Shown here: piece by piece, positions 16,263-26,925 of the stretch | Layout: each line of letters opens with the position of its first letter | How positions within the stretch are numbered: the first letter of the stretch is position 1 | DNA from: an uncultured Candidatus Saccharibacteria bacterium | Lineage (GTDB): Bacteria; Patescibacteriota; Minisyncoccia; Phycocordibacterales; CAYSCM01 | DNA length: 64,000 nucleotides | Direction of reading: 5' to 3' | Assembly (NCBI GenBank): GCA_964429815.1 | Contig: CAYSCM010000001.1 | Coordinates: forward strand, 320,001 to 384,000 | Notes under the pieces: model-generated | What the model was told of the DNA's origin: nothing | The model's input: only the letters and a program-made list of their open reading frames with translations | Database searches by the model: none | Made by a program: the position numbers and the translations under genes

Positions 16263-16333
16263 TTGCGGGATCGTCTAATGGTAGGACACCAGGTTCTGGC
16301 CCTGGTAATCTAGGTTCGAGCCCTAGTCCCGCA
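16263..16333 (+). tRNA. tRNA-Gln (CUG)
   Basis: UGCGGGA...CCAGG-UUCUGGC-CCUGG...CUAGG-UUCGAGC-CCUAG-UCCCGCA-G; U1:A72 as in bacterial tRNA-Gln. Confidence 0.85.
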
Positions 16334-16447
16334 GCAGCAGTCAGCGCAGTATCGTGCGAGACCGGAGAGCCTCAGAACTCAAAGGTCCGCCGATTCGCTG
16401 AATGTACTATTCCGTTATTGCATATCCGGTGAGTCCGGTATTCAGAA

Positions 16448-16493: not shown

Positions 16494-17825
16494 CTAGAGA
16501 TATCTTTTTGCTTTTAATGTGATTCTGGTTTTAAGAGTTCCTAGCAGTTCACGCTTCTCAAGAACATCGCCTTCTGTCAGGACATGTCTCACATAATGCC
16601 GTGCATCGAAGTGTTCCTCGACACGCTGCGGTGATTGCTGCCCCAAGAACATTCTTTGGAATTTCTTAGCTCGGGCGCGTTCCTCCTCAAATTTCTTGCG
16701 AATTATCGGCTCATTGAGTTCTAATTTATCTATCTGCTCTATGAGTTGTCGGACAAGCTCCTCTTCGCGAATGTAACCGGCGGCTCTACAGGCGCGATCC
16801 TTTGAGCGATTGCATCCGTAGTACAGGTACGTGGCAGTCGTGCCCGTGCTTTTGATGAGTTTGTGCTTCTCCTCGGCGCAGACACCCGAGCCGCACGCTC
16901 CGCAGGTGATGAGTCGTGTGAAGGCGAACTCCTTGGACTCACCGCGCACAATTCTGTCGCGCTTGAGTTGTGCCAGCACCTTTTCATACAGTTCACGGGT
17001 GATTATCGGTTCGTGTTTGCCCGTGTACCATTTGCCGCTCCCGATTGGGTACTCAAACTGTCCGAAGTAGAACGGCGTCTGCAGGATTTTGTAAATGTTA
17101 CTCAAAGTCAGAGGCTTATTGCTCGTTGCGCTTCGGAAATTCATATCGAACTTGAGCCAGTGATAGAGCTTTTGCCCAGACCATTTCTCGTATGCGACCT
17201 TCTCGAACATCTGCCGAACGACTGGTGCACGGTCGGGGTCGACCATGACGTACCCCTTCCGGTCGACACGTTTCTCGTTGAGGTAGCCGGTCGGCGCAGG
17301 CGCAGGCCATAAGCCCATCTCACAGCGCATGCGGAGGCCTCGCTTCACATTCACACTTTTGTTGTCGTTCTCAAGCTTTGCCTGACTGCACAAAATCATG
17401 AGAAGAAATTTCTCACTCGGTGAATTTGTGAACTTCTGGCCGTATGTTCGGATCTCGACGAGAAGTTTTTGGTCCATCAAGTCCACCAGACTCCCGAGGT
17501 CGCCTGCGTTGCGGCTCAGGCGGTCTGGGTTCCAGGTGAGTACACCGTTGAACCGTCCGGAGCGGATGTCTTTGAGAATCTCATTGAACACAGGCCGCTG
17601 GCCGGAGTCCTTCGCAGAGTGTGCTTCACGCCGGATGTCCACGATCTCGATGCCATCACGCTCCGCGATCTCGAGCATTTCCTTCACCTGAGAGTCGATG
17701 GACAGTGCCTGTTTTTCGCTCGTGTCCTCAGTCGACTTTCGAGCGTAGAGTACATACTTAACTGGTACTGCTAATTGCGGCACGAAAGTGCCTGGAGCTC
17801 TAGCCCCTCGGGTTATGGTTTCCAT
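16494..17825 (-). CDS. large serine recombinase (resolvase/integrase family)
   Basis: 443 aa; N-terminal resolvase domain YARKSTEDTSEKQALSIDSQ (catalytic Ser), recombinase domain, zinc-ribbon CGACGSGVC...YYGC. Confidence 0.9.
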   Translation of the reverse strand: METITRGARAPGTFVPQLAVPVKYVLYARKSTEDTSEKQALSIDSQVKEMLEIAERDGIEIVDIRREAHSAKDSGQRPVFNEILKDIRSGRFNGVLTWNPDRLSRNAGDLGSLVDLMDQKLLVEIRTYGQKFTNSPSEKFLLMILCSQAKLENDNKSVNVKRGLRMRCEMGLWPAPAPTGYLNEKRVDRKGYVMVDPDRAPVVRQMFEKVAYEKWSGQKLYHWLKFDMNFRSATSNKPLTLSNIYKILQTPFYFGQFEYPIGSGKWYTGKHEPIITRELYEKVLAQLKRDRIVRGESKEFAFTRLITCGACGSGVCAEEKHKLIKSTGTTATYLYYGCNRSKDRACRAAGYIREEELVRQLIEQIDKLELNEPIIRKKFEEERARAKKFQRMFLGQQSPQRVEEHFDARHYVRHVLTEGDVLEKRELLGTLKTRITLKAKRYL

Positions 17826-18233: not shown

Positions 18234-19331
18234 ATGAAAGTCAAAGTTGCGAACACAAGCCTACACGGCGCAAAGAAAGCGAAAAAAGACGAGTTCTACA
18301 CTCAACTCGTTGATATTGAAAAAGAGCTGAAGCACTACAAAAACCAGTTTCGCGGCAAAGTCGTGTACTGCAACTGTGACGACCCGTTCGAAAGCAACTT
18401 TTTCAAATACTTTGCCGCAAATTTCAACGCGCTTGAGTTGAAAAAACTTATCACGACGAGCTTCGTCAAATCGCCTATCGCTGGTGGGCAGTTGCCGCTT
18501 TTTGAAATGCAGGGGCTAAAACCCGACGGCAAAGAACCGTTTAAAATTGCAATACGGGAGGTCCCAGACGCGGACGGCGACGGTGCAATCAATCTTGATG
18601 ATGTGAAGTATCTACTGCAGCACGACAAGAACACAGCAACCCCGCTGAAAGGAAACGGCGATTTCCGCAGCGATGAATGCATGGAATTTCTTAAAGAGGC
18701 AGACATCGTCGTGACAAACCCGCCATTCTCACTTTTTCGTGAATACATTTCGCAACTGGTAGAACACAACAAAAAATTCCTGATCATCGGCAACATCAAC
18801 GCCGTCACCTACAAAGAAGTGTTCCCTTTGATTAAGGCAAACAAACTATGGCTCGGTGCAAGTATCCATAGTGGGGACCGCGAGTTCCGAGTGCCGGAGG
18901 ACTACCCGCTAAACGCAGCTGGCTACCGAGTTGACAGCGACGGAAACAAATATATTCGCGTCAAAGGTGTGCGCTGGTTTACCAATCTCGATTACGACGA
19001 ACGCCACGACAGCGTTGTGCTTTACAAAAAGTATTCGCCAAAAGAATATCCTAAATACGATAACTACGACGCCATAAATGTGAACAAAACTGTTGATATT
19101 CCCATGGACTATAAAGGCGCTATCGGTGTACCAATTACTTTCCTTGATAAATACAGCCCCGACCAATTTACAATTCTAGGCGCACTAATCTCTGGTCCAC
19201 TTGGACAAGAGCTAGGAGCGACCAAAACAAAACAGATCAGGCCAAACGGAAAAACGACAATGGAATACGGGCCTATTATCAAGACGAAGGGTTATTACGG
19301 AAGGATTGTCATTAAAAATAAAACGCTATGA
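18234..19331 (+). CDS. M.EcoRI-family N6-adenine DNA methyltransferase
   Basis: 365 aa; N-terminus KKAKKDEFYTQ...KVVYCNCDDP...FFKYFA and IVVTNPPFS (motif IV); collinear with M.EcoRI as recalled. Confidence 0.9.
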   Translation: MKVKVANTSLHGAKKAKKDEFYTQLVDIEKELKHYKNQFRGKVVYCNCDDPFESNFFKYFAANFNALELKKLITTSFVKSPIAGGQLPLFEMQGLKPDGKEPFKIAIREVPDADGDGAINLDDVKYLLQHDKNTATPLKGNGDFRSDECMEFLKEADIVVTNPPFSLFREYISQLVEHNKKFLIIGNINAVTYKEVFPLIKANKLWLGASIHSGDREFRVPEDYPLNAAGYRVDSDGNKYIRVKGVRWFTNLDYDERHDSVVLYKKYSPKEYPKYDNYDAINVNKTVDIPMDYKGAIGVPITFLDKYSPDQFTILGALISGPLGQELGATKTKQIRPNGKTTMEYGPIIKTKGYYGRIVIKNKTL

Positions 19332-20419
19332 AAATCGAGCTACAAAAAATAAAAATACGCGATGTCGTGAATGGCTACAAAGACAGCGCCGAGGAAGGCG
19401 TCGTAGCGTATGGTGGTAAGCTCGATATTCGTCCAAAGTACCAGCGTGAGTTCATCTACAAAGACAAACAGCGCGATGCGGTGCTTGATACGGTCAAGAA
19501 AGGATTTCCACTCAACGTTATGTATTGGATGGTGCGGGAGGACGGCGGTTATGAAGTGCTCGACGGCCAACAGCGCACCATCAGCATCGGCCAGTATGTC
19601 AATGGTGATTTCTCGCTCGGCGACCGCTATTTCCACAATCTCATCAAGGAGGAGCAAGAGCAGATTTTGAGCTACGAGCTGATGATTTATTTCTGTGAGG
19701 GCACAGATAAGGAACGGCTCGACTGGTTTAGGACAATCAACATCGCGGGCGAAAAGTTAACAGACCAAGAGCTTCGCAATGCTGTATACACTGGCCCTTG
19801 GCTTTCAGACGCAAAACTCAAATTCAGCAAGACGGGCTGTGCTGCCTATCACTTGGCAAACGACGGTGGGGCGCTCGTCAGTGGCTCGCCGATCCGACAG
19901 GAGTATTTGGAAACTGCACTCTCATGGATAAACAAGGGTGAGGTTGCGGCCTACATGGCGAAGCATCAGCATGACAAAGACGCTGAGAAACTATGGACTT
20001 ACTTCCAAGACGTAATTGGGTGGGCGCGAAAGACGTTCCCCAACTACCGCAAGGAAATGGCGCATGTGAACTGGGGTGAACTATACAATGAGTTCAAAGA
20101 CAAGAAACTGAATGCCGCCAAACTCGAAACCGAAGTCAAGAAACTAATGCAGGACGAGGATGTAACGAAAAAGTCCGGCATCTATCCGTATGTTTTGACC
20201 GGCAACGAGCGCGAACTTTCTATCCGCGCGTTCACCGACAAAATGAAGCGCGAGGCATACGAGCGACAAGACGGCGTCTGTCCGTTTTGCAAAAAGAAGT
20301 TTGACGTTTCAGAAATGGAAGCCGACCACATCACGCCATGGCATGAGGGCGGAAAAACAACAGCTGAAAACTGCCAGATGCTCTGCAAGCAAGATAACCG
20401 GACAAAGTCCGGGAAATGA
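19328..20419 (+). CDS. DUF262 (ParB-like nuclease-fold) protein with C-terminal HNH endonuclease domain
   Basis: 363 aa; IRPKYQREF and DGQQRT DUF262 motifs; C-terminal CPFCKKKF...ADHITPWHEGG...NCQMLCKQDN HNH; start overlaps MTase stop (ATGA). Confidence 0.85.
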   Translation: MKIELQKIKIRDVVNGYKDSAEEGVVAYGGKLDIRPKYQREFIYKDKQRDAVLDTVKKGFPLNVMYWMVREDGGYEVLDGQQRTISIGQYVNGDFSLGDRYFHNLIKEEQEQILSYELMIYFCEGTDKERLDWFRTINIAGEKLTDQELRNAVYTGPWLSDAKLKFSKTGCAAYHLANDGGALVSGSPIRQEYLETALSWINKGEVAAYMAKHQHDKDAEKLWTYFQDVIGWARKTFPNYRKEMAHVNWGELYNEFKDKKLNAAKLETEVKKLMQDEDVTKKSGIYPYVLTGNERELSIRAFTDKMKREAYERQDGVCPFCKKKFDVSEMEADHITPWHEGGKTTAENCQMLCKQDNRTKSGK

Positions 20420-20476: not shown

Positions 20477-21184
20477 ATGATAGAGCTACCATCTTGGCTT
20501 AAGATTGGAAAAATAATCGAAAAACTCGATTTCTCCAATTGGTTTAGTCGCCAGTTAAGAGATGATCAGCGTAAGTATGTGGGTGGGGACTACATCGAGA
20601 AAGTGGAAATACATAACCACGCTCCTTCAGGCACCATCGAGGAAGATCCGCTGGCCAGAGGACTGTATACGCTTGGTTTGGAAAGACGGCAGGTAGACAC
20701 GTACGGGGGCTTCTTCAATAGTTTTTATCTAGAAGTAGAGAAGAGACGGGAGCGTCAAATAACGAGAAGTGCTCATACCATGCTATTGGGTGCGGTTTTT
20801 GCCGTCGGGACAAAGTATCAAAACAATCCTGAGTGGAAAGAACACTGCTCATCGTCATTACGTGAAATATTCCACGAGTGGAGTGGCCCAGATGAATTCA
20901 GGCGGGACCTTGTTTCTGTCTACAACCACAGCAACGCAAAAGGAGGGCTTGCAACAGACGAGGAGGATAGTCTAACGTCATTTTGGCTTCTGTATCGATA
21001 TTTCTCTAGTATAGATCATCATCAAGCATCCGGAATACTGCACGCTCTACGCGCATTTCTTAGAGATAGCTCGCTTAAAATCGAGGACTGCGTGAATGAC
21101 GATATTTTTATTGAGAGAGCAAAAGATTTCTTCTCACATTTATCTCGTATTTCTGAAATCGCAAAGAAACGTACTGAACCATGA
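20477..21184 (+). CDS. hypothetical protein (no recognisable domain), upstream partner of 998-aa protein
   Basis: 235 aa; stop overlaps next start (ATGA). Confidence 0.6.
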   Translation: MIELPSWLKIGKIIEKLDFSNWFSRQLRDDQRKYVGGDYIEKVEIHNHAPSGTIEEDPLARGLYTLGLERRQVDTYGGFFNSFYLEVEKRRERQITRSAHTMLLGAVFAVGTKYQNNPEWKEHCSSSLREIFHEWSGPDEFRRDLVSVYNHSNAKGGLATDEEDSLTSFWLLYRYFSSIDHHQASGILHALRAFLRDSSLKIEDCVNDDIFIERAKDFFSHLSRISEIAKKRTEP

Positions 21185-24177
21185 ACCAGATCGAATTACA
21201 CAACAGGATAGATGAGTACATTGCTCACGGCCCAGGGAAGGCTGCATGGACGGCTGTAAAAAAAATAACTGAGATTCACCTCGACGTGAAGAAGTATTTT
21301 TATACTAGAGCCGATGAAAAGTGGTTTGACTTGGTACGCGGAGATATTCTGAATGTGGCGAAGACAAAAGCTAGTGATCCCACGAAATACTCATATCAAA
21401 CGCCTGAGCTTGATTATTTGGCTCGGGTGGCTGAGATAATTCCACAGAAGGTCACTAAACTCATTTTAGACACTTCCATATCTAAAGAGAACTTCAATCC
21501 AGAAGTGGTTGATCGTTTTCTTTGGATTTCGAGCAAATTGCCCGCCGACCAACTTAAACGAGTAGTCGTGAAAATCCGCGATGATCAATGGATTCAACTT
21601 ATGGCGCCTTTCAATAGGTGGGTTTTTGAATATCAAAAGATGTTCGAGACGCTTGCAGTTGCCAAGGACCAGGACAGCATACTTATCCTTGCGGAAGCGG
21701 TTTTGCGGACACGTTCAAAGGATGAGCTGGCAAAGATTAACAATGGGATATCGACGGACAATCCCTTCTTCCTTTCAGACCTCAGCGAAACAGACATTTT
21801 CAGTCTTCTTGCCTCTTCTGATGATAAACATCTAGATGCTGCTCTTCGGGTCGCAACTAATGCACTCGCGGGCGTTATCAGGACTGGCGATCGAGAAGAT
21901 AACGTTTTTGAAATCGGTGAGATTTTTCACCTCTTTGATGTTGACTTTTTTTCTCTTGAATTGGGCAAGGGCCGACATTATTCACATAGAGATGAGGTCA
22001 GAGAACTGGCAGCCGTTGTCAAAACACTCGTGAATCGCTCTATTGGTAAGAGCTGCAACGATTCAAAAGAGACTCGCCGGATCTACGAACACATAGAACG
22101 TTTGCCGGATAGTCGATCCATGTGGCGACTGCGGCTCTATGTCTGGAGTCTGTGTCCGAAGGTGTTCAAGGACGAATTACAGACTGCATTTTTCAAGGGC
22201 CTAGAGTCGCGAGAAATGTTATGGCCAATTACAGGCGGTGCGGAATACGATCACGCTCTTAAAAGGTGTTTTGATGTTGTTCTGTCCGAGGAGGACCGGA
22301 AGGCATATATTCAACGTGCCTTTGAGATACTTGACGTGAATGAAGAGCACCCATACGGCTACGGTATATTTGCCAGTATCCAAAGGCATCTGTCAGAACC
22401 GCAGAAGCAGCGGGTGGAAGCCCTCTACAAGATGCCGCTTGATCCAAATTATACGCCTGAGCCTAGCGTAGGTCATTCGTATGCCGGCACAATAGTTTCG
22501 CAGTCACCCAAGGAGGCAGATGATGTCTGGGGAAAGCCGGTTCCGGAGATTGTACAAGCTCTAGAAACCCGCTTGACGCCGGAGCAACTACAAAAGATAG
22601 ACGGTAGGAAAGATTTTCTAAAACCGGTAAACGCAGAGGGGGTGGCGGATAAAATGCGGTCACAAATGAAAGAACGCACGAGTGAATATACCGCCAACGC
22701 GACTTTGTTTTTCGATAGAAAACTAATGGATCCACACTACACCTACTCCTTCTTCCGTGGCGTGGATGAGATTATTCGCTTGCATCGAGAAAAAGTGTCA
22801 GAAATAAACTGGCAGCAGATTATTGCGCTTGGTGTCGCAATTACGAAAGAAGGACAACGAGAGTCTTTTGATTTCACTAAGCGAGAAAGGGAGCACTTCG
22901 ATGCCTGGCTCGCAGGATGGATTGGTGTACACGACGGCCTCGGAGATGTTTTGCAGGATTATCTCCGAAATGATAACGGAATCACTGAGGAGTCCTTCAA
23001 TAAGAACCGGGAGGATCTTTTCAAGATTATTTGCTACCTACTCACCATACCGGATCCGGTTCCTAAGGACGAGCAACCTGAAACGGCTGGCATGACTACC
23101 ACGCCGCCCGGCGGAGAGAAATTAGTGAGCGATCCTTTCGCGATAGCCATTAACTCGGTTCGCGGCCGAGCATATCAAGCGTTCGTAATGTTTATGGAGT
23201 GGGATGGGCGTAAGTATGCGAAGGACGCAAAAGTGAAGCTATCTCCAGATGTATTGCAAGAGTACAAGGATCTTTTAGCGCGTGAAAATACCGGCGCAAT
23301 TTTCTTCATGTACGGACACTATCTACCGTTTTTCTACTTCCGCGATGTTAAGGAAGTCCGAAAGCTCCTCCCGCAAATATTTACGAGCGACAGTAAAAAG
23401 GTTCATCTGTATCTCGCGGCGTGGGAGGGTTATCTGACTCGTAGTCTCTATCGAGAGATGTTTGTCCAGCTACAGGGTGAATACGAACGAGCAATCAAAA
23501 ATAATCCTGACTCTTATCCGAAAAGAAATTACCGTGCAGACCTTGACGAAGCATTAGCAACTCATATGGCATTGGCGTACATCCACTTCGAGGATTTCAC
23601 GCTTGATTCAAGTCTGTTCAAACTTTTTTGGAGCACTCCAAACCAAAAGAGGTATCAAGAGTTTGTATCATTCATCGGACGCTATGTGATCTCGAAAGAT
23701 CATGCAAAGGAGAATCTCGCTGAAAATCCTGAGATCAAACTTTCTAAGCTTATTGACTTCTGGGATTGGACGCTTGAATACGTTAATGACCCGGATGTAT
23801 TTGCCGAATATGGTTTCTGGATGGATACAACCGGTGGTTTATATGACGATGTAACGGCACTTGCCCGAAGGATTCAGAAAACACTCAAAAAATCTAAAGG
23901 TAAAGTCGACTGGGAGATTAAGCTAATGGATTCGCTCCCGACGTTGGCGGCAGCAGTCCCCAAGGACACACTGGAGATTTTACGACTTTATCTCAAACCA
24001 CTTGATGTGAGCCCACGCAGTCGACACTTCATGCATGTCGACGCCGACCTTGTAAATATTTTCAGGACGCTGCATAAGAATCCAGAGACTCAAGACGAGA
24101 CTTATAAGTTGATCGACGAACTCCTGCCGTTGGGGAATGGGGTGTATTGGAAGTTGAAGGAGGCCTTAACGGAGTAG
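21181..24177 (+). CDS. large hypothetical protein (998 aa), predicted alpha-helical, no NTPase or nuclease motifs recognised
   Basis: Uninterrupted 3 kb ORF in lower-GC island; Trp/Tyr-rich; no Walker A. Confidence 0.7.
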   Translation: MNQIELHNRIDEYIAHGPGKAAWTAVKKITEIHLDVKKYFYTRADEKWFDLVRGDILNVAKTKASDPTKYSYQTPELDYLARVAEIIPQKVTKLILDTSISKENFNPEVVDRFLWISSKLPADQLKRVVVKIRDDQWIQLMAPFNRWVFEYQKMFETLAVAKDQDSILILAEAVLRTRSKDELAKINNGISTDNPFFLSDLSETDIFSLLASSDDKHLDAALRVATNALAGVIRTGDREDNVFEIGEIFHLFDVDFFSLELGKGRHYSHRDEVRELAAVVKTLVNRSIGKSCNDSKETRRIYEHIERLPDSRSMWRLRLYVWSLCPKVFKDELQTAFFKGLESREMLWPITGGAEYDHALKRCFDVVLSEEDRKAYIQRAFEILDVNEEHPYGYGIFASIQRHLSEPQKQRVEALYKMPLDPNYTPEPSVGHSYAGTIVSQSPKEADDVWGKPVPEIVQALETRLTPEQLQKIDGRKDFLKPVNAEGVADKMRSQMKERTSEYTANATLFFDRKLMDPHYTYSFFRGVDEIIRLHREKVSEINWQQIIALGVAITKEGQRESFDFTKREREHFDAWLAGWIGVHDGLGDVLQDYLRNDNGITEESFNKNREDLFKIICYLLTIPDPVPKDEQPETAGMTTTPPGGEKLVSDPFAIAINSVRGRAYQAFVMFMEWDGRKYAKDAKVKLSPDVLQEYKDLLARENTGAIFFMYGHYLPFFYFRDVKEVRKLLPQIFTSDSKKVHLYLAAWEGYLTRSLYREMFVQLQGEYERAIKNNPDSYPKRNYRADLDEALATHMALAYIHFEDFTLDSSLFKLFWSTPNQKRYQEFVSFIGRYVISKDHAKENLAENPEIKLSKLIDFWDWTLEYVNDPDVFAEYGFWMDTTGGLYDDVTALARRIQKTLKKSKGKVDWEIKLMDSLPTLAAAVPKDTLEILRLYLKPLDVSPRSRHFMHVDADLVNIFRTLHKNPETQDETYKLIDELLPLGNGVYWKLKEALTE

Positions 24178-24178
24178 C

Positions 24179-24397
24179 TTAGAGGAAATACTCAACATTC
24201 TTTCCGTATAGCTTCGCCAGCTTGTTGAGCCATATTGCTTCTACCCGCAATTCTCCCAGCTCAACTTTCGACACCCACGACTGAGAGCATTTGAGTTTGT
24301 CAGCGACCTCGGCTTGTGTCAGCCCCGCATCAAGGCGGGCTTTCCTCAGTCGCTTCACGAATACAGCCCGCTCGTCAGTATGAATGGACTTTCTCAT
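24179..24397 (-). CDS. XRE-family HTH transcriptional regulator
   Basis: 72 aa; LTQAEVADKLKCSQSWVSKVELG HTH. Confidence 0.8.
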   Translation of the reverse strand: MRKSIHTDERAVFVKRLRKARLDAGLTQAEVADKLKCSQSWVSKVELGELRVEAIWLNKLAKLYGKNVEYFL

Positions 24398-24424
24398 ACC
24401 TATAAGCGTCTATTCCGTTATGGG

Positions 24425-24443
24425 ATATTCCAAAATGGAATAT
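24425..24443. promoter_or_regulatory. perfect palindromic operator atattcca-aaa-tggaatat in divergent XRE/nuclease promoter region
   Basis: 8-bp perfect inverted repeat with 3-bp spacer, 28 nt upstream of XRE start. Confidence 0.6.
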
Positions 24444-24527: not shown

Positions 24528-24995
24528 ATGGACCCTATATCCAATAACAAGCGTAATACCATCCTTACCGGCGTCTCCGGCGAGTACTACGTCGCCGCTG
24601 AACTTTCGCGTCGTGGATACCTCGCCTCTATCACACTTCGCAACACCAAAGGCGTAGACATCCTCTGCTCAAACGCGGAGGCGAGTAAATCTGTAGGTAT
24701 CCAGGTAAAGGCAAAGTCGGGTAATGATCGTGTATGGATTCTCAACGAGAAAGGAGAACATTACTACGCGAACAATCTCTTTTACGTTTTTATCAACATC
24801 GACGACGGTCTCAACAAGCATCCTGAGTACACGGTCGTGCCCAGTAAGGTAGTTGCCGAGTACGCTCGCGAGTCGCACGCGAGGTGGTTAAGCGAACCGA
24901 AGAAGGACGGCAGCGCTCGCAAAGACACGACTATGCGGAAGTTTCAGGATCCGGAGGAGAAGTATCTTGGTCGGTGGGATCTGTTGGGTCTTTGA
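24528..24995 (+). CDS. PD-(D/E)xK-fold nuclease-like protein (YraN/Hjc-like motif)
   Basis: 155 aa; GVSGEYYVAAELSRRGY...RNTKGVDILC resembles GxxGE...GEIDLIA core. Confidence 0.5.
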   Translation: MDPISNNKRNTILTGVSGEYYVAAELSRRGYLASITLRNTKGVDILCSNAEASKSVGIQVKAKSGNDRVWILNEKGEHYYANNLFYVFINIDDGLNKHPEYTVVPSKVVAEYARESHARWLSEPKKDGSARKDTTMRKFQDPEEKYLGRWDLLGL

Positions 24996-25560
24996 ATTCG
25001 TTCCCGTATTTCTCATTCAACCTCTCGAGTGTCTTTTTGCTAATAACGATCTGCCCGTTTTCGTCTGAAAATGCTTCAATTAGGTCTTGTTTTCTCTGTC
25101 TCTCAACTTCGTCAAGGAATTTCTTCAACGAAGCCTCTCTGACAAGTAACTTCCCGTCGGGGCCGGTGAACATCCTCCGCAATTTCTTCAGGTCGATTTC
25201 CATCTGGTAGTCGGGACCGAATTCCTCATAGTCGTCGAACTTATCCATGAGCGGTATCTTCTCCTCCTCGCCGCGAAGCTTCGGGCTGTAGAACTTGCTG
25301 TTGTGCGTGAGGAAGAATTTGGAGTCCGCCTTGTCCCCGTTGTTGATCCCTTTGATGATGTTCGACTCCGCCTTCTCGCTCACGGCCTCCCGGCTCACTC
25401 TCCGCACGGTTTCCGCGGCCCGCTTGAATTCCGGGTCGTCGTGCATCCACCGGTATATGGTCATGCGCGTAACGTCGACCTTTCGCGCGGCCGTGCCGAT
25501 AAACGGCGTGGTCTCCAACGCCTTGAGGAATTCCTCGCGTTTATCGGCACCGTGCGTCAT
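24931..25560 (-). CDS. phage terminase small subunit-like HTH protein
   Basis: 209 aa; N-terminal HTH GTAARKVDVTRMTIYRWMHDDPEF; acidic C-terminus; 3' end overlaps the convergent gene by 65 nt. Confidence 0.5.
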   Translation of the reverse strand: MTHGADKREEFLKALETTPFIGTAARKVDVTRMTIYRWMHDDPEFKRAAETVRRVSREAVSEKAESNIIKGINNGDKADSKFFLTHNSKFYSPKLRGEEEKIPLMDKFDDYEEFGPDYQMEIDLKKLRRMFTGPDGKLLVREASLKKFLDEVERQRKQDLIEAFSDENGQIVISKKTLERLNEKYGNEFKDPTDPTDQDTSPPDPETSA

Positions 25561-25563
25561 AAA

Positions 25564-26925
25564 CTAGCCGATCTTCACGCGCTTCTTGCCTGTGAACTTC
25601 TCCCAGCGATTGAGAATTACTTCGGCGTACACAGGTGATTTCTCAATCAGGAAACAACGCCGACCAAGCGTGATGGATGCGATGAGCGTCGACCCGCTCC
25701 CGCCGAACGGCTCAAGCACGAGCTGCCCGCGCTTCGTGAGCGTCTTGATGTACGGCACGAGAATCTCGATCGGTTTTACGCCGAAGATGATCGCTTGGCC
25801 TGAAGATTTTTCATCAGCGGCATTGAACTCGATGAAATCGGTCGGGCAGTATTTCTTGTCTTTGCCGTAGCTCTCCCAGTGTGCGCCCTTGCCGTCAATG
25901 GCAAAGAGTGCCGTTTGGTACTCGTTCTCGTACAACTCCTGTTCGTTCTCGAGATTCAGACCGCTGTACTCCTCGCTCGTGCCGACCATCGCGATGTCGT
26001 GCTTGGAGAAGAACTTATTGCGCCCCGCGTATCCTTGGTTGCGGTTCGGCAAGTGCCACACGATCATATTGCGCACCTTCCAGTGCTTTTCCATCTCACT
26101 CCAGATTTCGCGAATGTTCTTCCAGTTTTCGTAGCAGATGATTGAGAAGTCCTTATTCGCAACTTTCGCAACATTGCTCATCCATTTCTCGGTGAAATCG
26201 GCTGGCAATGATTCTGTTTCAAGATAGCGACGGTTCTTCTTCGAGCCGAACCCAACCGTTGGCTCGCCATTGCGGGTCTTGCCTTTGAGGTAGTCCAGCC
26301 GATACGGAGGGTCCGTCATAACCATGTCCGCCTTTTCGGACATGAGCTTGAGCACATCTTCTTCGATAGTGCTGTCCCCACAGAGAAGCCGCGAACCGTC
26401 GAGCTCGTACACGTCGCCCTTCCGCACACCGATTGTTTTGATGTCGAGCTTTTTGAGCTCTTTCTCAAGTGAGAATTCCGCCTCCGTAGAATCTTCCTCA
26501 AAGATGTTGTCGAGTTCTTCGGAATCGAAGCCGACAGCCTCAAGGAATGCTTCGTCGAACTCGGCGAGCAACAGGTCGTAATCCCACTCACCGACAGCCT
26601 TGTTGAGGCGGAGGCAGAGGTCCTTCTCTTTTTCGATATCGGCAATGTGGACGAAGACGCACGGCACCTCCTTGTACCCGAGATCTTTCATGACTTCGAA
26701 GCGGAGGTTGCCGCCAATAATGACGTTCTCGCGCTCCTTGGCGCGGTTTACTACAAGGGGATCAACACTTCCATGCCGCTCAAGACTCTCGCGCACGGGC
26801 TTCTTCGTGTCATCGTTGACCAAACGAGGATTATATTCGGCGTGCTTAAGGCTGGTAATGGGAACATATTCGACCCACAGTTTGTGAGCCGTATCCGCAG
26901 AGACTGCGACAGTGTTTTTAGTCAT
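25564..26925 (-). CDS. ParB-like nuclease domain fused to DNA N6/N4 methyltransferase (phage-type)
   Basis: 453 aa; ParB N-terminal domain (VPCVFVH, GGNLRFE), then MTDPPY (motif IV) and C-terminal PFGGSGST (motif I): beta-class order. Confidence 0.85.
   Translation of the reverse strand: MTKNTVAVSADTAHKLWVEYVPITSLKHAEYNPRLVNDDTKKPVRESLERHGSVDPLVVNRAKERENVIIGGNLRFEVMKDLGYKEVPCVFVHIADIEKEKDLCLRLNKAVGEWDYDLLLAEFDEAFLEAVGFDSEELDNIFEEDSTEAEFSLEKELKKLDIKTIGVRKGDVYELDGSRLLCGDSTIEEDVLKLMSEKADMVMTDPPYRLDYLKGKTRNGEPTVGFGSKKNRRYLETESLPADFTEKWMSNVAKVANKDFSIICYENWKNIREIWSEMEKHWKVRNMIVWHLPNRNQGYAGRNKFFSKHDIAMVGTSEEYSGLNLENEQELYENEYQTALFAIDGKGAHWESYGKDKKYCPTDFIEFNAADEKSSGQAIIFGVKPIEILVPYIKTLTKRGQLVLEPFGGSGSTLIASITLGRRCFLIEKSPVYAEVILNRWEKFTGKKRVKIG

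What the first reader, a model, noticed from the sequence alone, without database searches (positions are those of the whole stretch)
20477..24177. Translationally coupled pair of orphan genes (235 aa + 998 aa) inside the defence/mobile island: candidate undescribed system
The two ORFs overlap by ATGA and sit between a restriction-modification-like operon and an XRE regulator/nuclease pair. The surrounding DNA is lower-GC and begins with a serine recombinase next to a tRNA. Neither protein shows any motif I can assign: no Walker A, no HNH, PD-(D/E)xK, HEPN, SIR2, TIR or helicase signatures. The 998-aa product looks like a long alpha-helical repeat protein rich in Trp/Tyr. Small-plus-very-large gene pairs embedded in defence islands next to R-M systems are the usual context in which new anti-phage systems have been found.
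Basis: partly seen in the sequence, partly recalled or inferred. Interest (0 to 1): 0.8.

Follow-up and report, generated by a model that had tools for sequence, protein, structure and literature searches.

The report
Split capsid-sensor-type phage defence gene pair
The two "orphan" genes are a split version of a known type of single-protein phage-defence sensor (Dsr1-like), in which the usual NAD-degrading head is replaced by a small, uncharacterised predicted-nuclease protein; it is a new variant rather than a new kind of system.

Summary
In detail: ORFs of 235 aa (A, 20477-21184) and 998 aa (B, 21181-24177) overlap by ATGA in a low-GC stretch between an R-M operon and an XRE gene. They are not orphans. 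B has at least 240 homologues. Its C-terminal two-thirds is homologous to the sensor of Dsr1 (PADLOC Dsr1 E 7.5e-19; hhalign 99.3% to a Dsr1-like protein). A recent preprint reports that this sensor class recognises phage major capsid protein and carries interchangeable N-terminal effectors.

A is homologous to the N-terminal domain of ~1200-aa fused relatives (hhalign 97.3%), so A+B is one protein split in two. An A-like domain is fused to or abuts B in 63 of 80 loci. Elsewhere its place is taken by a CHAT protease, an LmuA-type nuclease or membrane proteins. Two sensors 86% identical in one MAG carry A and CHAT respectively.

A is a confident all-alpha fold, not SIR2. Residues N117, S127, R129, E/D130, H181 and H182 are 97-100% conserved, and A is distantly related to Pfam pP_pnuc_1 (predicted nuclease). 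Neighbours are rich in R-M genes.

Verdict: a two-gene Dsr1/Avs7-sensor-type defence module with an uncharacterised effector; a new variant of a known kind.

The parts
20477..21184 (+). Gene A (235 aa): the stand-alone effector-position subunit, a pP_pnuc_1-like all-alpha domain preceded by a ~50-aa leader
   Evidence: ORF. Homologous to the N-terminal domain of fused ~1200-aa relatives: hhalign 97.3%, E 1.7e-11, 149 columns. AF2 pLDDT 82.7, above 90 for residues ~55-235, seven helices.
20477..20626 (+). Leader of A (residues ~1-50, MIELPSWLKIGKIIEKLDFSNWF...): an optional N-terminal module of unknown role
   Evidence: Absent from most A homologues of 191-203 aa. Shared with P0122, with the A of L011, and with the non-A partner proteins of L034 and L040 (BLASTP E 2.3e-6). 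AF2 confidence is low for residues 11-49.
20789..20869 (+). Motif 1 of A (G105-I131: GAvFAvgt..NPEW..H.SSLREI), which contains G105, N117, S127, R129 and E130
   Evidence: Across 150 representatives at most 50% identical to each other: R129 100%, S127 99%, G105 98%, N117 98%, E/D130 97%. This is the stretch that matches Pfam pP_pnuc_1 profile positions ~10-44.
21017..21022 (+). Motif 2 of A (H181-H182), directly after helix 160-180
   Evidence: H181 100% and H182 97% conserved across 144 aligned representatives. Invariant in alignment A1.
21181..21184 (+). ATGA stop/start overlap between A and B (inferred translational coupling)
   Evidence: Sequence read directly. The same 4-nt overlap occurs in 8 other split loci, and 10 more have gaps of 0-7 nt.
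21181..24177 (+). Gene B (998 aa): the alpha-solenoid sensor subunit
   Evidence: At least 240 homologues. AF2 pLDDT 90.7, pTM 0.71, all-alpha. In fused relatives the alignment to B starts at B residue 3, right after the A-like domain.
21181..22179 (+). N-terminal third of B (residues 1-333): family-specific helical region, the presumed docking platform for the effector subunit
   Evidence: Not covered by the Dsr1 alignments. Residues 51-150 are among the most conserved blocks of the family. Directly follows the A-like domain in fused proteins. The docking role is inferred.
22180..24150 (+). Dsr1-type sensor region of B (residues 334-990)
   Evidence: hhalign of the B family against the Legionella plasmid protein WP_070322551.1: 99.3%, E 1.1e-20, 577 columns. 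That protein matches the PADLOC Dsr1 model at 8.4e-34 over profile positions 469-1214 of 1227. B residues 420-932 match the Dsr1 model directly at 7.5e-19.
18234..20419 (+). Adjacent type II R-M operon (EcoRI-type MTase plus GmrSD_N-HNH REase): context, not part of the module
   Evidence: Related cassettes have many different neighbours.
16494..17825 (-). Large serine recombinase next to tRNA-Gln (16264-16335): context, the likely mobility gene of the island
   Evidence: Pfam Resolvase, Recombinase and Zn_ribbon_recom; tRNA.
24179..24397 (-). XRE-family HTH gene convergent with B: context, a possible island regulator
   Evidence: Pfam HTH_31 1.9e-12 and HTH_3 1.1e-8.

Best explanation
A and B together form a two-subunit version of a single-protein innate-immune receptor of the Dsr1/Avs7-sensor type.

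B is the sensor, a ~1000-aa alpha-solenoid whose C-terminal two-thirds is homologous to the Dsr1 sensor. A occupies the effector position. In Dsr1 that position holds the SIR2 NADase. Here it holds a small all-alpha domain distantly related to Pfam pP_pnuc_1 (predicted nuclease), with a near-invariant N-S-R-E/D...H-H constellation.

Proposed mechanism:
1. A and B are made in fixed ratio by translational coupling.
2. A docks on the N-terminal region of B, as in the fused relatives.
3. B binds a conserved phage protein during infection. By analogy with EcDsr1 and SeAvs7, this is the major capsid protein.
4. The resulting conformational change or oligomerisation switches on A.
5. A degrades nucleic acid, RNA or DNA, and stops phage replication by abortive infection or growth arrest.

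Shown here: the homologies, the fission/fusion relationship, the strict gene linkage, the effector swapping and the defence-island embedding.

Inferred: the docking, the trigger, A's enzymatic activity and the outcome.
For: Sensor identity:
- B residues 420-932 match the PADLOC Dsr1 model at 7.5e-19.
- Family members P0017 and the L046 sensor also hit it (3.7e-14 and 6.5e-18).
- tblastn of B finds a Legionella plasmid protein (E 2e-13) that is itself a strong Dsr1 match (8.4e-34).
- hhalign of the B family against that protein gives 99.3% over 577 columns, running to the C-terminus.
- The literature reports a Dsr1/Avs7 sensor shared by non-STAND proteins with diverse N-terminal effectors, with split forms analysed and MCP as the trigger.

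A and B are one unit:
- 28 of the top 120 B homologues are ~1165-1216 aa, and their alignment to B starts at B residue 3, at positions ~150-203.
- hhalign of the A family against those N-terminal extensions gives 97.3%.
- In 80 genomic loci an A-like domain is fused (22), split and abutting (36) or divergent and abutting (5).
- A and B distances co-vary: Mantel r 0.47, 0 of 2000 permutations.

A sits in the effector slot:
- In other loci the same slot holds a CHAT protease (31.4 bits against a cut-off of 24), an LmuA-type nuclease domain (5.3e-13) or TM-helix proteins.
- L003 (A partner) and L004 (CHAT partner), from one MAG, have sensors 86% identical over 997 aa.

A looks enzymatic:
- R129 and H181 100%, S127 99%, N117 98%, H182 97% and E/D130 97% across 150 diverse representatives.
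- 10 of 31 family members hit pP_pnuc_1.
- Two superfamily members reach its gathering score (P0143 26.3 bits, P0191 26.6 bits).
- hhalign of A1 against P0143 gives 96%.

Defence embedding:
- Among 146 immediate neighbours: N6_Mtase 12, Eco57I 10, type IIG R-M 10, ResIII 6, plus Mrr, Vsr, serine recombinases and SocA/Panacea.
- Four IMG/VR viral contigs carry the cassette.
Against: - No experiment exists on this clade.
- The window's own A does not hit pP_pnuc_1. Family hits are mostly below the Pfam cut-off and rest largely on one ~30-residue motif.
- pP_pnuc_1 is itself only a predicted nuclease.
- Some B-family members (P0068, the L018 sensor) do not reach the PADLOC Dsr1 model at E 0.01. 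Identity to Dsr1-like sensors is only ~23-26%, so the ligand may differ from MCP.
- In Caldilineaceae the A-like domain is fused behind an FRG domain, a putative effector in its own right. A need not be the only or main effector.
Confidence: 0.68

Rival explanations
1. The sensor assignment is the same, but A is not the killing effector. It would be a coupling or regulatory module, for example an adaptor or auto-inhibitory cap, or a binding site for a small molecule or nucleic acid. The lethal activity would lie elsewhere: in B, in a trans-acting partner, or in extra domains such as FRG.
For: - Caldilineaceae partners are FRG + A-like (P0211, FRG 1.7e-16). Frg is proposed as an ART-superfamily antiviral effector or NADase (PMC9503650).
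- A has no specific structural match to any nuclease.
- The window's A is below every Pfam threshold.
Against: - In most loci (fused ~1200-aa proteins and A+B pairs) no other candidate effector domain exists.
- A is replaced, not accompanied, by CHAT, LmuA-type nuclease or TM partners on near-identical sensors.
- 97-100% conservation of S, R, E/D, H and H fits an active site better than an adaptor.
Confidence: 0.17
2. The pair is not an anti-phage system. It would be an addiction or maintenance module (toxin-antitoxin-like) or another cargo function of mobile elements in Patescibacteria, with B as a scaffold.
For: - It lies in a probable serine-recombinase island.
- It occurs on four IMG/VR viral contigs.
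- No functional data exist.
Against: - Homology to the Dsr1 sensor, an experimentally validated defence protein family (PMC12803255; 10.1101/2021.12.14.472415).
- The partner repertoire (CHAT, LmuA-like nuclease, FRG, TM) is typical of immune effectors.
- Neighbours are enriched in R-M genes.
- A 1000-aa antitoxin would be without precedent (my own knowledge).
Confidence: 0.08
3. A and B are accessory subunits of the adjacent R-M operon (MTase-REase-A-B as one four-gene system).
For: They are on the same strand, only 57 nt lie between the REase stop and A's start, and no convincing terminator separates them.
Against: - Across 80 loci the cassette is found beside many different genes: type IIG, type I and type III R-M enzymes, recombinases and non-defence genes.
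- The same GmrSD_N-HNH/EcoRI-MTase pair does not recur in the top neighbour families.
- Fused single-gene versions exist.
Confidence: 0.04
4. One reading: a categorically new defence system built from two orphan proteins.
For: - There are no Pfam or NCBIfam hits for either protein.
- There is no PDB relative by sequence or fold.
Against: - B is homologous to the Dsr1 sensor.
- A is related to pP_pnuc_1.
- The architecture class is already published.
Confidence: 0.03

Closest known systems
DSR1 / Dsr1 (defence-associated sirtuin 1; Gao et al. 2020; Garb et al., 10.1101/2021.12.14.472415)
   Same: - The large C-terminal alpha-helical sensor is homologous to B residues ~334-990.
- The total length of A-like domain plus B (~1200 aa) matches the 1227-position Dsr1 model.
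- The effector sits N-terminal to the sensor.
- It is carried in defence islands.
   Different: - There is no SIR2 domain. The effector position holds an all-alpha pP_pnuc_1-like domain.
- It is encoded as two overlapping genes here.
- B's N-terminal third is not alignable to Dsr1.
- Identity to Dsr1-like sensors is only ~23-26%.
- NAD+ depletion is therefore not expected.
Avs7/Dsr1 sensor superfamily with variable effectors (Lee et al., bioRxiv January 2026, PMC12803255)
   Same: - A conserved helical-repeat sensor is combined with many alternative N-terminal effectors: NADase, nuclease, kinase, HEPN-like, TM and unknown.
- Split proteins are noted.
- Horizontal transfer is extensive.
- These features match the A / CHAT / LmuA-nuclease / TM / FRG swapping seen here.
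   Different: - There is no STAND NTPase, so it is not an Avs7 proper.
- Whether this Patescibacteria-centred clade and its A-type effector are in their catalogue could not be checked, because the supplements are not held.
- The MCP trigger is shown only for SeAvs7 and EcDsr1.
Pfam PF18165 pP_pnuc_1 (Predicted pPIWI-associating nuclease)
   Same: - It shares the GA-x-[FY]-A...NP[DE][WR]...A-H/S-S-L-R-E motif, and in the best alignments the downstream HH.
- 10 of 31 A-family members hit it.
- P0143 and P0191 reach the gathering score.
- hhalign gives 96%.
   Different: - The window's A itself gives no hit.
- No PIWI gene is nearby.
- The family's nuclease activity is a prediction only. The family name comes from the tool output; its origin in comparative genomics of pPIWI operons is from my memory, and the source paper is not held.
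DSR2 and short-pAgo systems (SPARTA/SPARSA): analogous logic only
   Same: A sensor module is coupled to an exchangeable effector (SIR2, TIR or a nuclease) that is switched on by target recognition. DSR2 also has an alpha-solenoid C-terminal sensor for a phage structural protein (abstracts listed).
   Different: No sequence or fold match to DSR2 or APAZ/pAgo proteins was found. The sensors are unrelated at the level tested.

Membership tests
DSR1 (defence-associated sirtuin 1) | N-terminal SIR2 NADase domain | tested here: not met
   There is no SIR2 hit in Pfam, PADLOC or NCBIfam for A or B. The Dsr1-model match starts at profile position 712, far from the N-terminal SIR2 part. A is predicted all-alpha, whereas SIR2 is a Rossmann-type alpha/beta fold (established knowledge).
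DSR1 (defence-associated sirtuin 1) | C-terminal Dsr1-type sensor domain | tested here: met
   PADLOC Dsr1 7.5e-19 (B 420-932 against profile 712-1167). hhalign to a Dsr1-like protein gives 99.3%, E 1.1e-20, B 334-990.
DSR1 (defence-associated sirtuin 1) | Single-polypeptide system | tested here: not met
   There are two genes with an ATGA overlap in the window. Fused single-gene relatives do exist.
DSR1 (defence-associated sirtuin 1) | NAD+ depletion on phage infection | not testable with these tools
   This requires an experiment. It is not expected, given the absence of SIR2.
Avs7/Dsr1-sensor superfamily (PMC12803255) | Homology to the shared helical-repeat sensor domain | tested here: met
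   Met for the Dsr1 branch. No Avs7 sequence or model was available for a direct test.
Avs7/Dsr1-sensor superfamily (PMC12803255) | Variable effector N-terminal to, or encoded immediately upstream of, the sensor | tested here: met
   A-like in 63 of 80 loci, CHAT in 4, TM-helix proteins in 8, an LmuA-type nuclease or shared module in 3. Sensors 86% identical carry different partners.
Avs7/Dsr1-sensor superfamily (PMC12803255) | Activation by phage major capsid protein | not testable with these tools
   This needs co-expression or pull-down experiments, or at least AF3 complex modelling with cognate phage MCPs.
Avs7 proper (STAND NTPase) | STAND/NOD NTPase domain with a Walker A motif | tested here: not met
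   There is no Walker A pattern and no NTPase family hit.
Pfam PF18165 pP_pnuc_1 | Score at or above the gathering cut-off (26.3 bits) | tested here: inconclusive
   The window's A gives no hit. Ten of 31 family members hit below the cut-off, best 18.3 bits. Superfamily members P0143 (26.3 bits) and P0191 (26.6 bits) reach it. hhalign of A1 against P0143 gives 96%. A is a distant relative, not a certified member.
Pfam PF18165 pP_pnuc_1 | Genomic association with prokaryotic PIWI genes | tested here: not met
   No PIWI or Argonaute family appears among the window neighbours or among the top families of 146 neighbours of related loci.
HEPN RNases | Conserved R-x4-6-H motif in a four-helix bundle | tested here: not met

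The most novel reading that the evidence does not exclude
The A-type domain is a previously uncharacterised enzymatic effector. It would be an all-alpha fold with an N-S-R-E/D...H-H active site, distinct from HEPN, SIR2, TIR and PD-(D/E)xK, with an activity that may not be a simple nuclease.

The Patescibacteria-centred B clade would then be a 'plug-and-play' receptor whose conserved N-terminal platform accepts separately encoded, interchangeable effector subunits (A, CHAT, TM proteins, LmuA-type nuclease). It may sense a trigger other than the capsid protein.

That would make it a tractable model for how a single sensor activates unrelated effectors in trans, and a main innate-immunity module of ultra-small CPR bacteria.
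Probability: 0.3. Interest if true: 0.7.

Novelty: new variant of a known kind. Interest (0 to 1): 0.5.

Why it matters
- **Annotation.** It turns two 'hypothetical proteins', conserved in hundreds of mostly candidate-phyla-radiation genomes, into a recognisable immune module. This extends the Dsr1/Avs7 capsid-sensor superfamily into lineages with tiny genomes, where defence repertoires are poorly known.
- **A testable effector.** It flags a small effector domain with a sharply defined, untested catalytic signature (R129, H181, H182).
- **A natural experiment.** The naturally split form, plus near-identical sensors paired with different effectors (A-type or CHAT), bears on how one sensor switches on unrelated effectors.
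- **Limits.** The general architecture is already published, so the advance is incremental unless the effector chemistry or the trigger turns out to be new.

Tried and rejected
**Hypotheses rejected**
- A as a divergent SIR2. There is no SIR2 hit, and A is confidently all-alpha.
- B as a housekeeping HEAT/ARM scaffold. Foldseek matches to karyopherins and CAND1 have TM scores of 0.12-0.25 only, and the family has a patchy, horizontally transferred, defence-linked distribution.
- An RNA component. Rfam finds only the tRNA, and there are no tandem repeats.

**Searches that found nothing or could not be completed**
- PDB sequence searches with single sequences and with profiles found nothing.
- The afdb50 fold library was unavailable.
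- PHROGs gave nothing for A or B.
- tblastn against phage genomes found no match.
- The promoter and terminator scan was at or below shuffle expectation, so it says nothing about operon structure.
- The supplementary tables of PMC12803255 are not held, so I could not check whether this clade is already catalogued.
- The source paper for Pfam pP_pnuc_1 is not held.
- Exact look-ups of housekeeping proteins returned no names. A Patescibacteria origin is only inferred, from the nearest homologues and the 501.7-kb contig.
- Model coordinates are not exposed, so the 3-D clustering of A's invariant residues could not be checked.


Full report
**1. Observation**

The window holds two same-strand ORFs at the stated coordinates: A (20477-21184, 235 aa) and B (21181-24177, 998 aa). 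A's TGA stop overlaps B's ATG in the tetranucleotide ATGA at 21181-21184.

- tRNA-Gln lies at 16264-16335.
- A large serine recombinase lies at 16494-17825 on the minus strand.
- An EcoRI-type adenine methylase (18234-19331) and a GmrSD_N+HNH restriction enzyme (19328-20419) lie upstream.
- An XRE HTH gene (24179-24397) is convergent with B.
- GC falls to 0.43-0.48 between 18 and 24 kb, against 0.51-0.59 in most of the window.

Neither protein hits Pfam or NCBIfam, PHROGs or any PDB sequence. Neither has a Walker A, HNH or PD-(D/E)xK pattern. B has 2.0% Trp and 4.3% Tyr and is predicted all-helical. The description is therefore accurate, apart from the word 'orphan'.

**2. B is a Dsr1-type sensor**

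The one library hit is decisive. B residues 420-932 match positions 712-1167 of the 1227-position PADLOC Dsr1 model at E 7.5e-19. That region lies well beyond the N-terminal part of Dsr1 that holds SIR2. I checked the link in three ways.
- Other family members hit the same model: P0017 at 3.7e-14 and the L046 sensor at 6.5e-18. P0068 and the L018 sensor do not.
- tblastn of B against plasmids finds a Legionella pneumophila protein, WP_070322551.1, which is IS-truncated (E 2e-13). That protein matches the Dsr1 model at 8.4e-34 over positions 469-1214.
- A profile of 92 B-family sequences aligns to that protein with 99.3% probability (E 1.1e-20) over 577 columns. The alignment runs from B residue 334 to 990, that is, to the C-terminus of both proteins.

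AF2 gives a confident all-alpha solenoid (pLDDT 90.7, pTM 0.71). Foldseek against the PDB returns only generic HEAT/ARM proteins with TM scores of 0.25 or less, so no solved structure of this sensor class was found.

A January 2026 preprint (PMC12803255) reports four things about the Dsr1 sensor.
- It is a helical-repeat domain shared with the STAND protein Avs7.
- It also occurs in many non-STAND proteins that carry different N-terminal effectors: NADases, nucleases, kinases, HEPN-like, TM and unknown.
- 'Split proteins' were analysed together with their adjacent genes.
- The phage major capsid protein triggers both SeAvs7 and EcDsr1.

**3. A is the split-off N-terminal domain**

B has at least 240 homologues, all unnamed, in two length classes: about 1000 aa and about 1165-1216 aa. 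In every long form the alignment to B starts at B residue 3, at position ~150-203. A profile of the A family aligns to those N-terminal extensions with 97.3% probability (E 1.7e-11, 149 columns). A+B is therefore a fission product, or the fused form a fusion product, of one ~1200-aa protein. That is the size of Dsr1.

I scanned one genome per species and analysed 80 loci. An A-like domain is present in 63 of them.
- It is fused to B in 22.
- It is a separate ORF abutting B's start in 36. Eight of these have the same 4-nt overlap and ten more have gaps of 0-7 nt.
- It is divergent but abutting in 5.

A and B distances co-vary across loci (Mantel r 0.47; 0 of 2000 permutations reach it). Split and fused states are intermixed, which implies repeated fission or fusion.

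**4. A sits in an effector slot**

In loci without an A-like domain, the gene abutting the sensor falls into these classes.
- A CHAT protease (PF12770, 31.4 bits, above the cut-off) in 4 loci.
- Proteins with an N-terminal hydrophobic helix in 8 loci.
- A protein with an LmuA-type nuclease domain (PADLOC 5.3e-13), which shares a ~160-aa C-terminal module with two further partners.

In Caldilineaceae, an FRG domain (1.7e-16) precedes the A-like domain. Frg has been proposed as an ART-superfamily antiviral effector (PMC9503650).

The sharpest case is a single Paceibacterota MAG with two cassettes. Their sensors are 86% identical over 997 residues without a gap. One follows an A-type protein (L003) and the other a CHAT protease (L004). 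A is thus interchangeable with a bona fide immune effector on essentially the same sensor.

**5. What A is**

An exhaustive profile search finds just 292 representative clusters in 1.84 billion proteins. In the listed hits the domain is nearly always N-terminal, either alone or on ~1100-1300-aa proteins. Conservation across 150 representatives, each at most 50% identical to the others, is as follows.

| Residue | Conservation |
|---|---|
| R129 | 100% |
| H181 | 100% |
| S127 | 99% |
| G105 | 98% |
| N117 | 98% |
| H182 | 97% |
| E/D130 | 97% |

This pattern is what one expects of an active site.

Ten of 31 family members individually hit Pfam PF18165, pP_pnuc_1 ('Predicted pPIWI-associating nuclease'), and no other family recurs in more than two members. 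The matches cover the GA.FA...NP[DE]W...AHSLRE motif and, in the best cases, extend to the HH. Two more distant superfamily members reach the Pfam gathering score: P0143 at 26.3 bits and P0191 at 26.6 bits. The A profile aligns to P0143 at 96%.

The window's own A is below every threshold. I therefore call it a distant relative of pP_pnuc_1, not a certified member. The nuclease activity of that family is itself only predicted. A HEPN assignment fails, because the only R-x6-H pattern that ends at H181 starts at the non-conserved R174.

**6. Embedding**

The 146 genes immediately flanking the 80 cassettes include the following.
- N6_Mtase (12), Eco57I (10), MmeI and TaqI_C (7 each), ResIII (6) and type IIG R-M enzymes (10).
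- Mrr, Vsr, serine recombinases, SocA/Panacea and IrrE-like peptidases.

Hosts span Patescibacteria (the majority), Caldilineaceae, Nitrospira, Omnitrophota, Verrucomicrobia, Aminicenantia and a Methanosarcinales MAG. That spread indicates horizontal transfer. Four IMG/VR viral contigs carry the cassette. No structured RNA or repeat array accompanies it in the window.

**7. Mechanism**

Shown: B is a Dsr1-type sensor. A is the cognate effector-position domain, encoded separately and tightly linked. The slot accepts unrelated effectors. The module lives in defence islands.

Inferred, by analogy with EcDsr1 and SeAvs7 and from the residue conservation:
- A docks on B's conserved N-terminal region. 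Residues 51-150 are among the most conserved blocks.
- B binds a phage protein, most likely the major capsid protein.
- Activation, possibly through oligomerisation, turns on A.
- A then cleaves nucleic acid and aborts the infection.

I put about 0.7 on 'Dsr1/Avs7-type defence module', about 0.45 on 'A is a nuclease effector', and about 0.35 on 'the trigger is the capsid protein'.

**8. Comparison and novelty**

The pair works like Dsr1, but it fails two of Dsr1's defining features: there is no SIR2, and it is not a single polypeptide. It should not be filed as Dsr1. It fits the broader Avs7/Dsr1-sensor superfamily with swappable, sometimes split, effectors that is already in the literature.

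Three things are new or unverified as known:
- The Patescibacteria-centred clade.
- The A-type effector with its defined signature.
- The evidence for in-trans, interchangeable effector subunits.

I rate it a new variant of a known kind, with interest 0.5. It is not low, because the effector chemistry is unknown and the split form is experimentally attractive.

Noticed in passing
window 16407-16425 and 24410-24428: An imperfect 19-nt direct repeat (CTATTCCGTTAT..ATAT, 17 of 19 identical) lies 8003 nt apart. It brackets exactly the serine recombinase, the R-M operon, A, B and XRE, and coincides with the low-GC stretch. It may mark attL/attR of an ~8-kb island next to tRNA-Gln. By my estimate ~0.6 such matches are expected by chance in 14 kb.
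   Followed up: partly
window 20477-20626 (A residues 1-50); L034:4555-5244; L040:9358-9996: The window's A carries a ~50-aa leader (MIELPSWLKIGKIIEKLDFSNWF...) that most A homologues lack. The leader recurs on unrelated sensor-partner proteins in other loci (BLASTP E 2.3e-6). It looks like a small portable module of unknown role, with low AF2 confidence.
   Followed up: partly
L003:3012-6586 and L004:470-4536 (same Paceibacterota MAG, SMAG_U8138): Two paralogous cassettes in one genome have sensors 86% identical over 997 aa but unrelated upstream partners, an A-type protein and a CHAT protease. This points to a recent effector swap.
   Followed up: yes
L038:8725-9846, L041:160-1251, L054:8939-10063, L069:8831-9937; P0211: Caldilineaceae versions of the partner protein are ~365-374 aa, with an N-terminal FRG domain (Pfam 1.7e-16 for P0211) in front of the A-like domain. 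They therefore carry two putative effector modules in one subunit.
   Followed up: partly
window 24528-24995 (+): This 155-aa ORF has no Pfam hit but matches PHROGs of unknown function (phrog_29029, 1.5e-16).
   Followed up: partly
window 24931-26925 (-): A 209-aa HTH protein with weak terminase-small-subunit PHROG hits (1.8e-8) lies next to a ParB_N-fused N6/N4 DNA methylase (453 aa). The pair is typical of phage or satellite remnants and sits just outside the putative island.
   Followed up: no
window 18234-20419 (+): The R-M pair is unusual: an EcoRI-type methylase (5.2e-149) is coupled by a start/stop overlap to a restriction enzyme built from GmrSD_N (DUF262-type) and HNH domains (PADLOC REase_II 2.7e-140).
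   Followed up: no
L008:6646-9384, L020:6420-9473, L030:5978-9400, L043:3283-6795, L076:6019-9471, L078:5855-9373, L080:6340-9543, L082:6463-9522 and others: In about ten related loci a ~900-1170-aa same-strand gene directly precedes the cassette. The neighbour scan shows ten type IIG restriction-methylase matches, so this looks like a recurrent type IIG R-M plus sensor cassette pairing. The mapping of the type IIG hits to these particular genes is inferred from gene size and match counts, because no per-gene table was returned.
   Followed up: partly
L084:6001-9590 (ENA contig ctg490573_1x): P0143 (320 aa) has a pP_pnuc_1-type domain plus the first ~100 residues of a B-like sensor. It is followed by several short same-strand ORFs on a 1x-coverage long-read contig, so it is probably one fused gene broken by sequencing frameshifts. 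It lies beside a type III R-M methylase and a helicase.
   Followed up: partly
L085-L088 (IMG/VR contigs): Four predicted viral contigs carry the cassette: one split, two fused, and one with a different upstream gene. The module therefore also travels on phages or prophages.
   Followed up: partly
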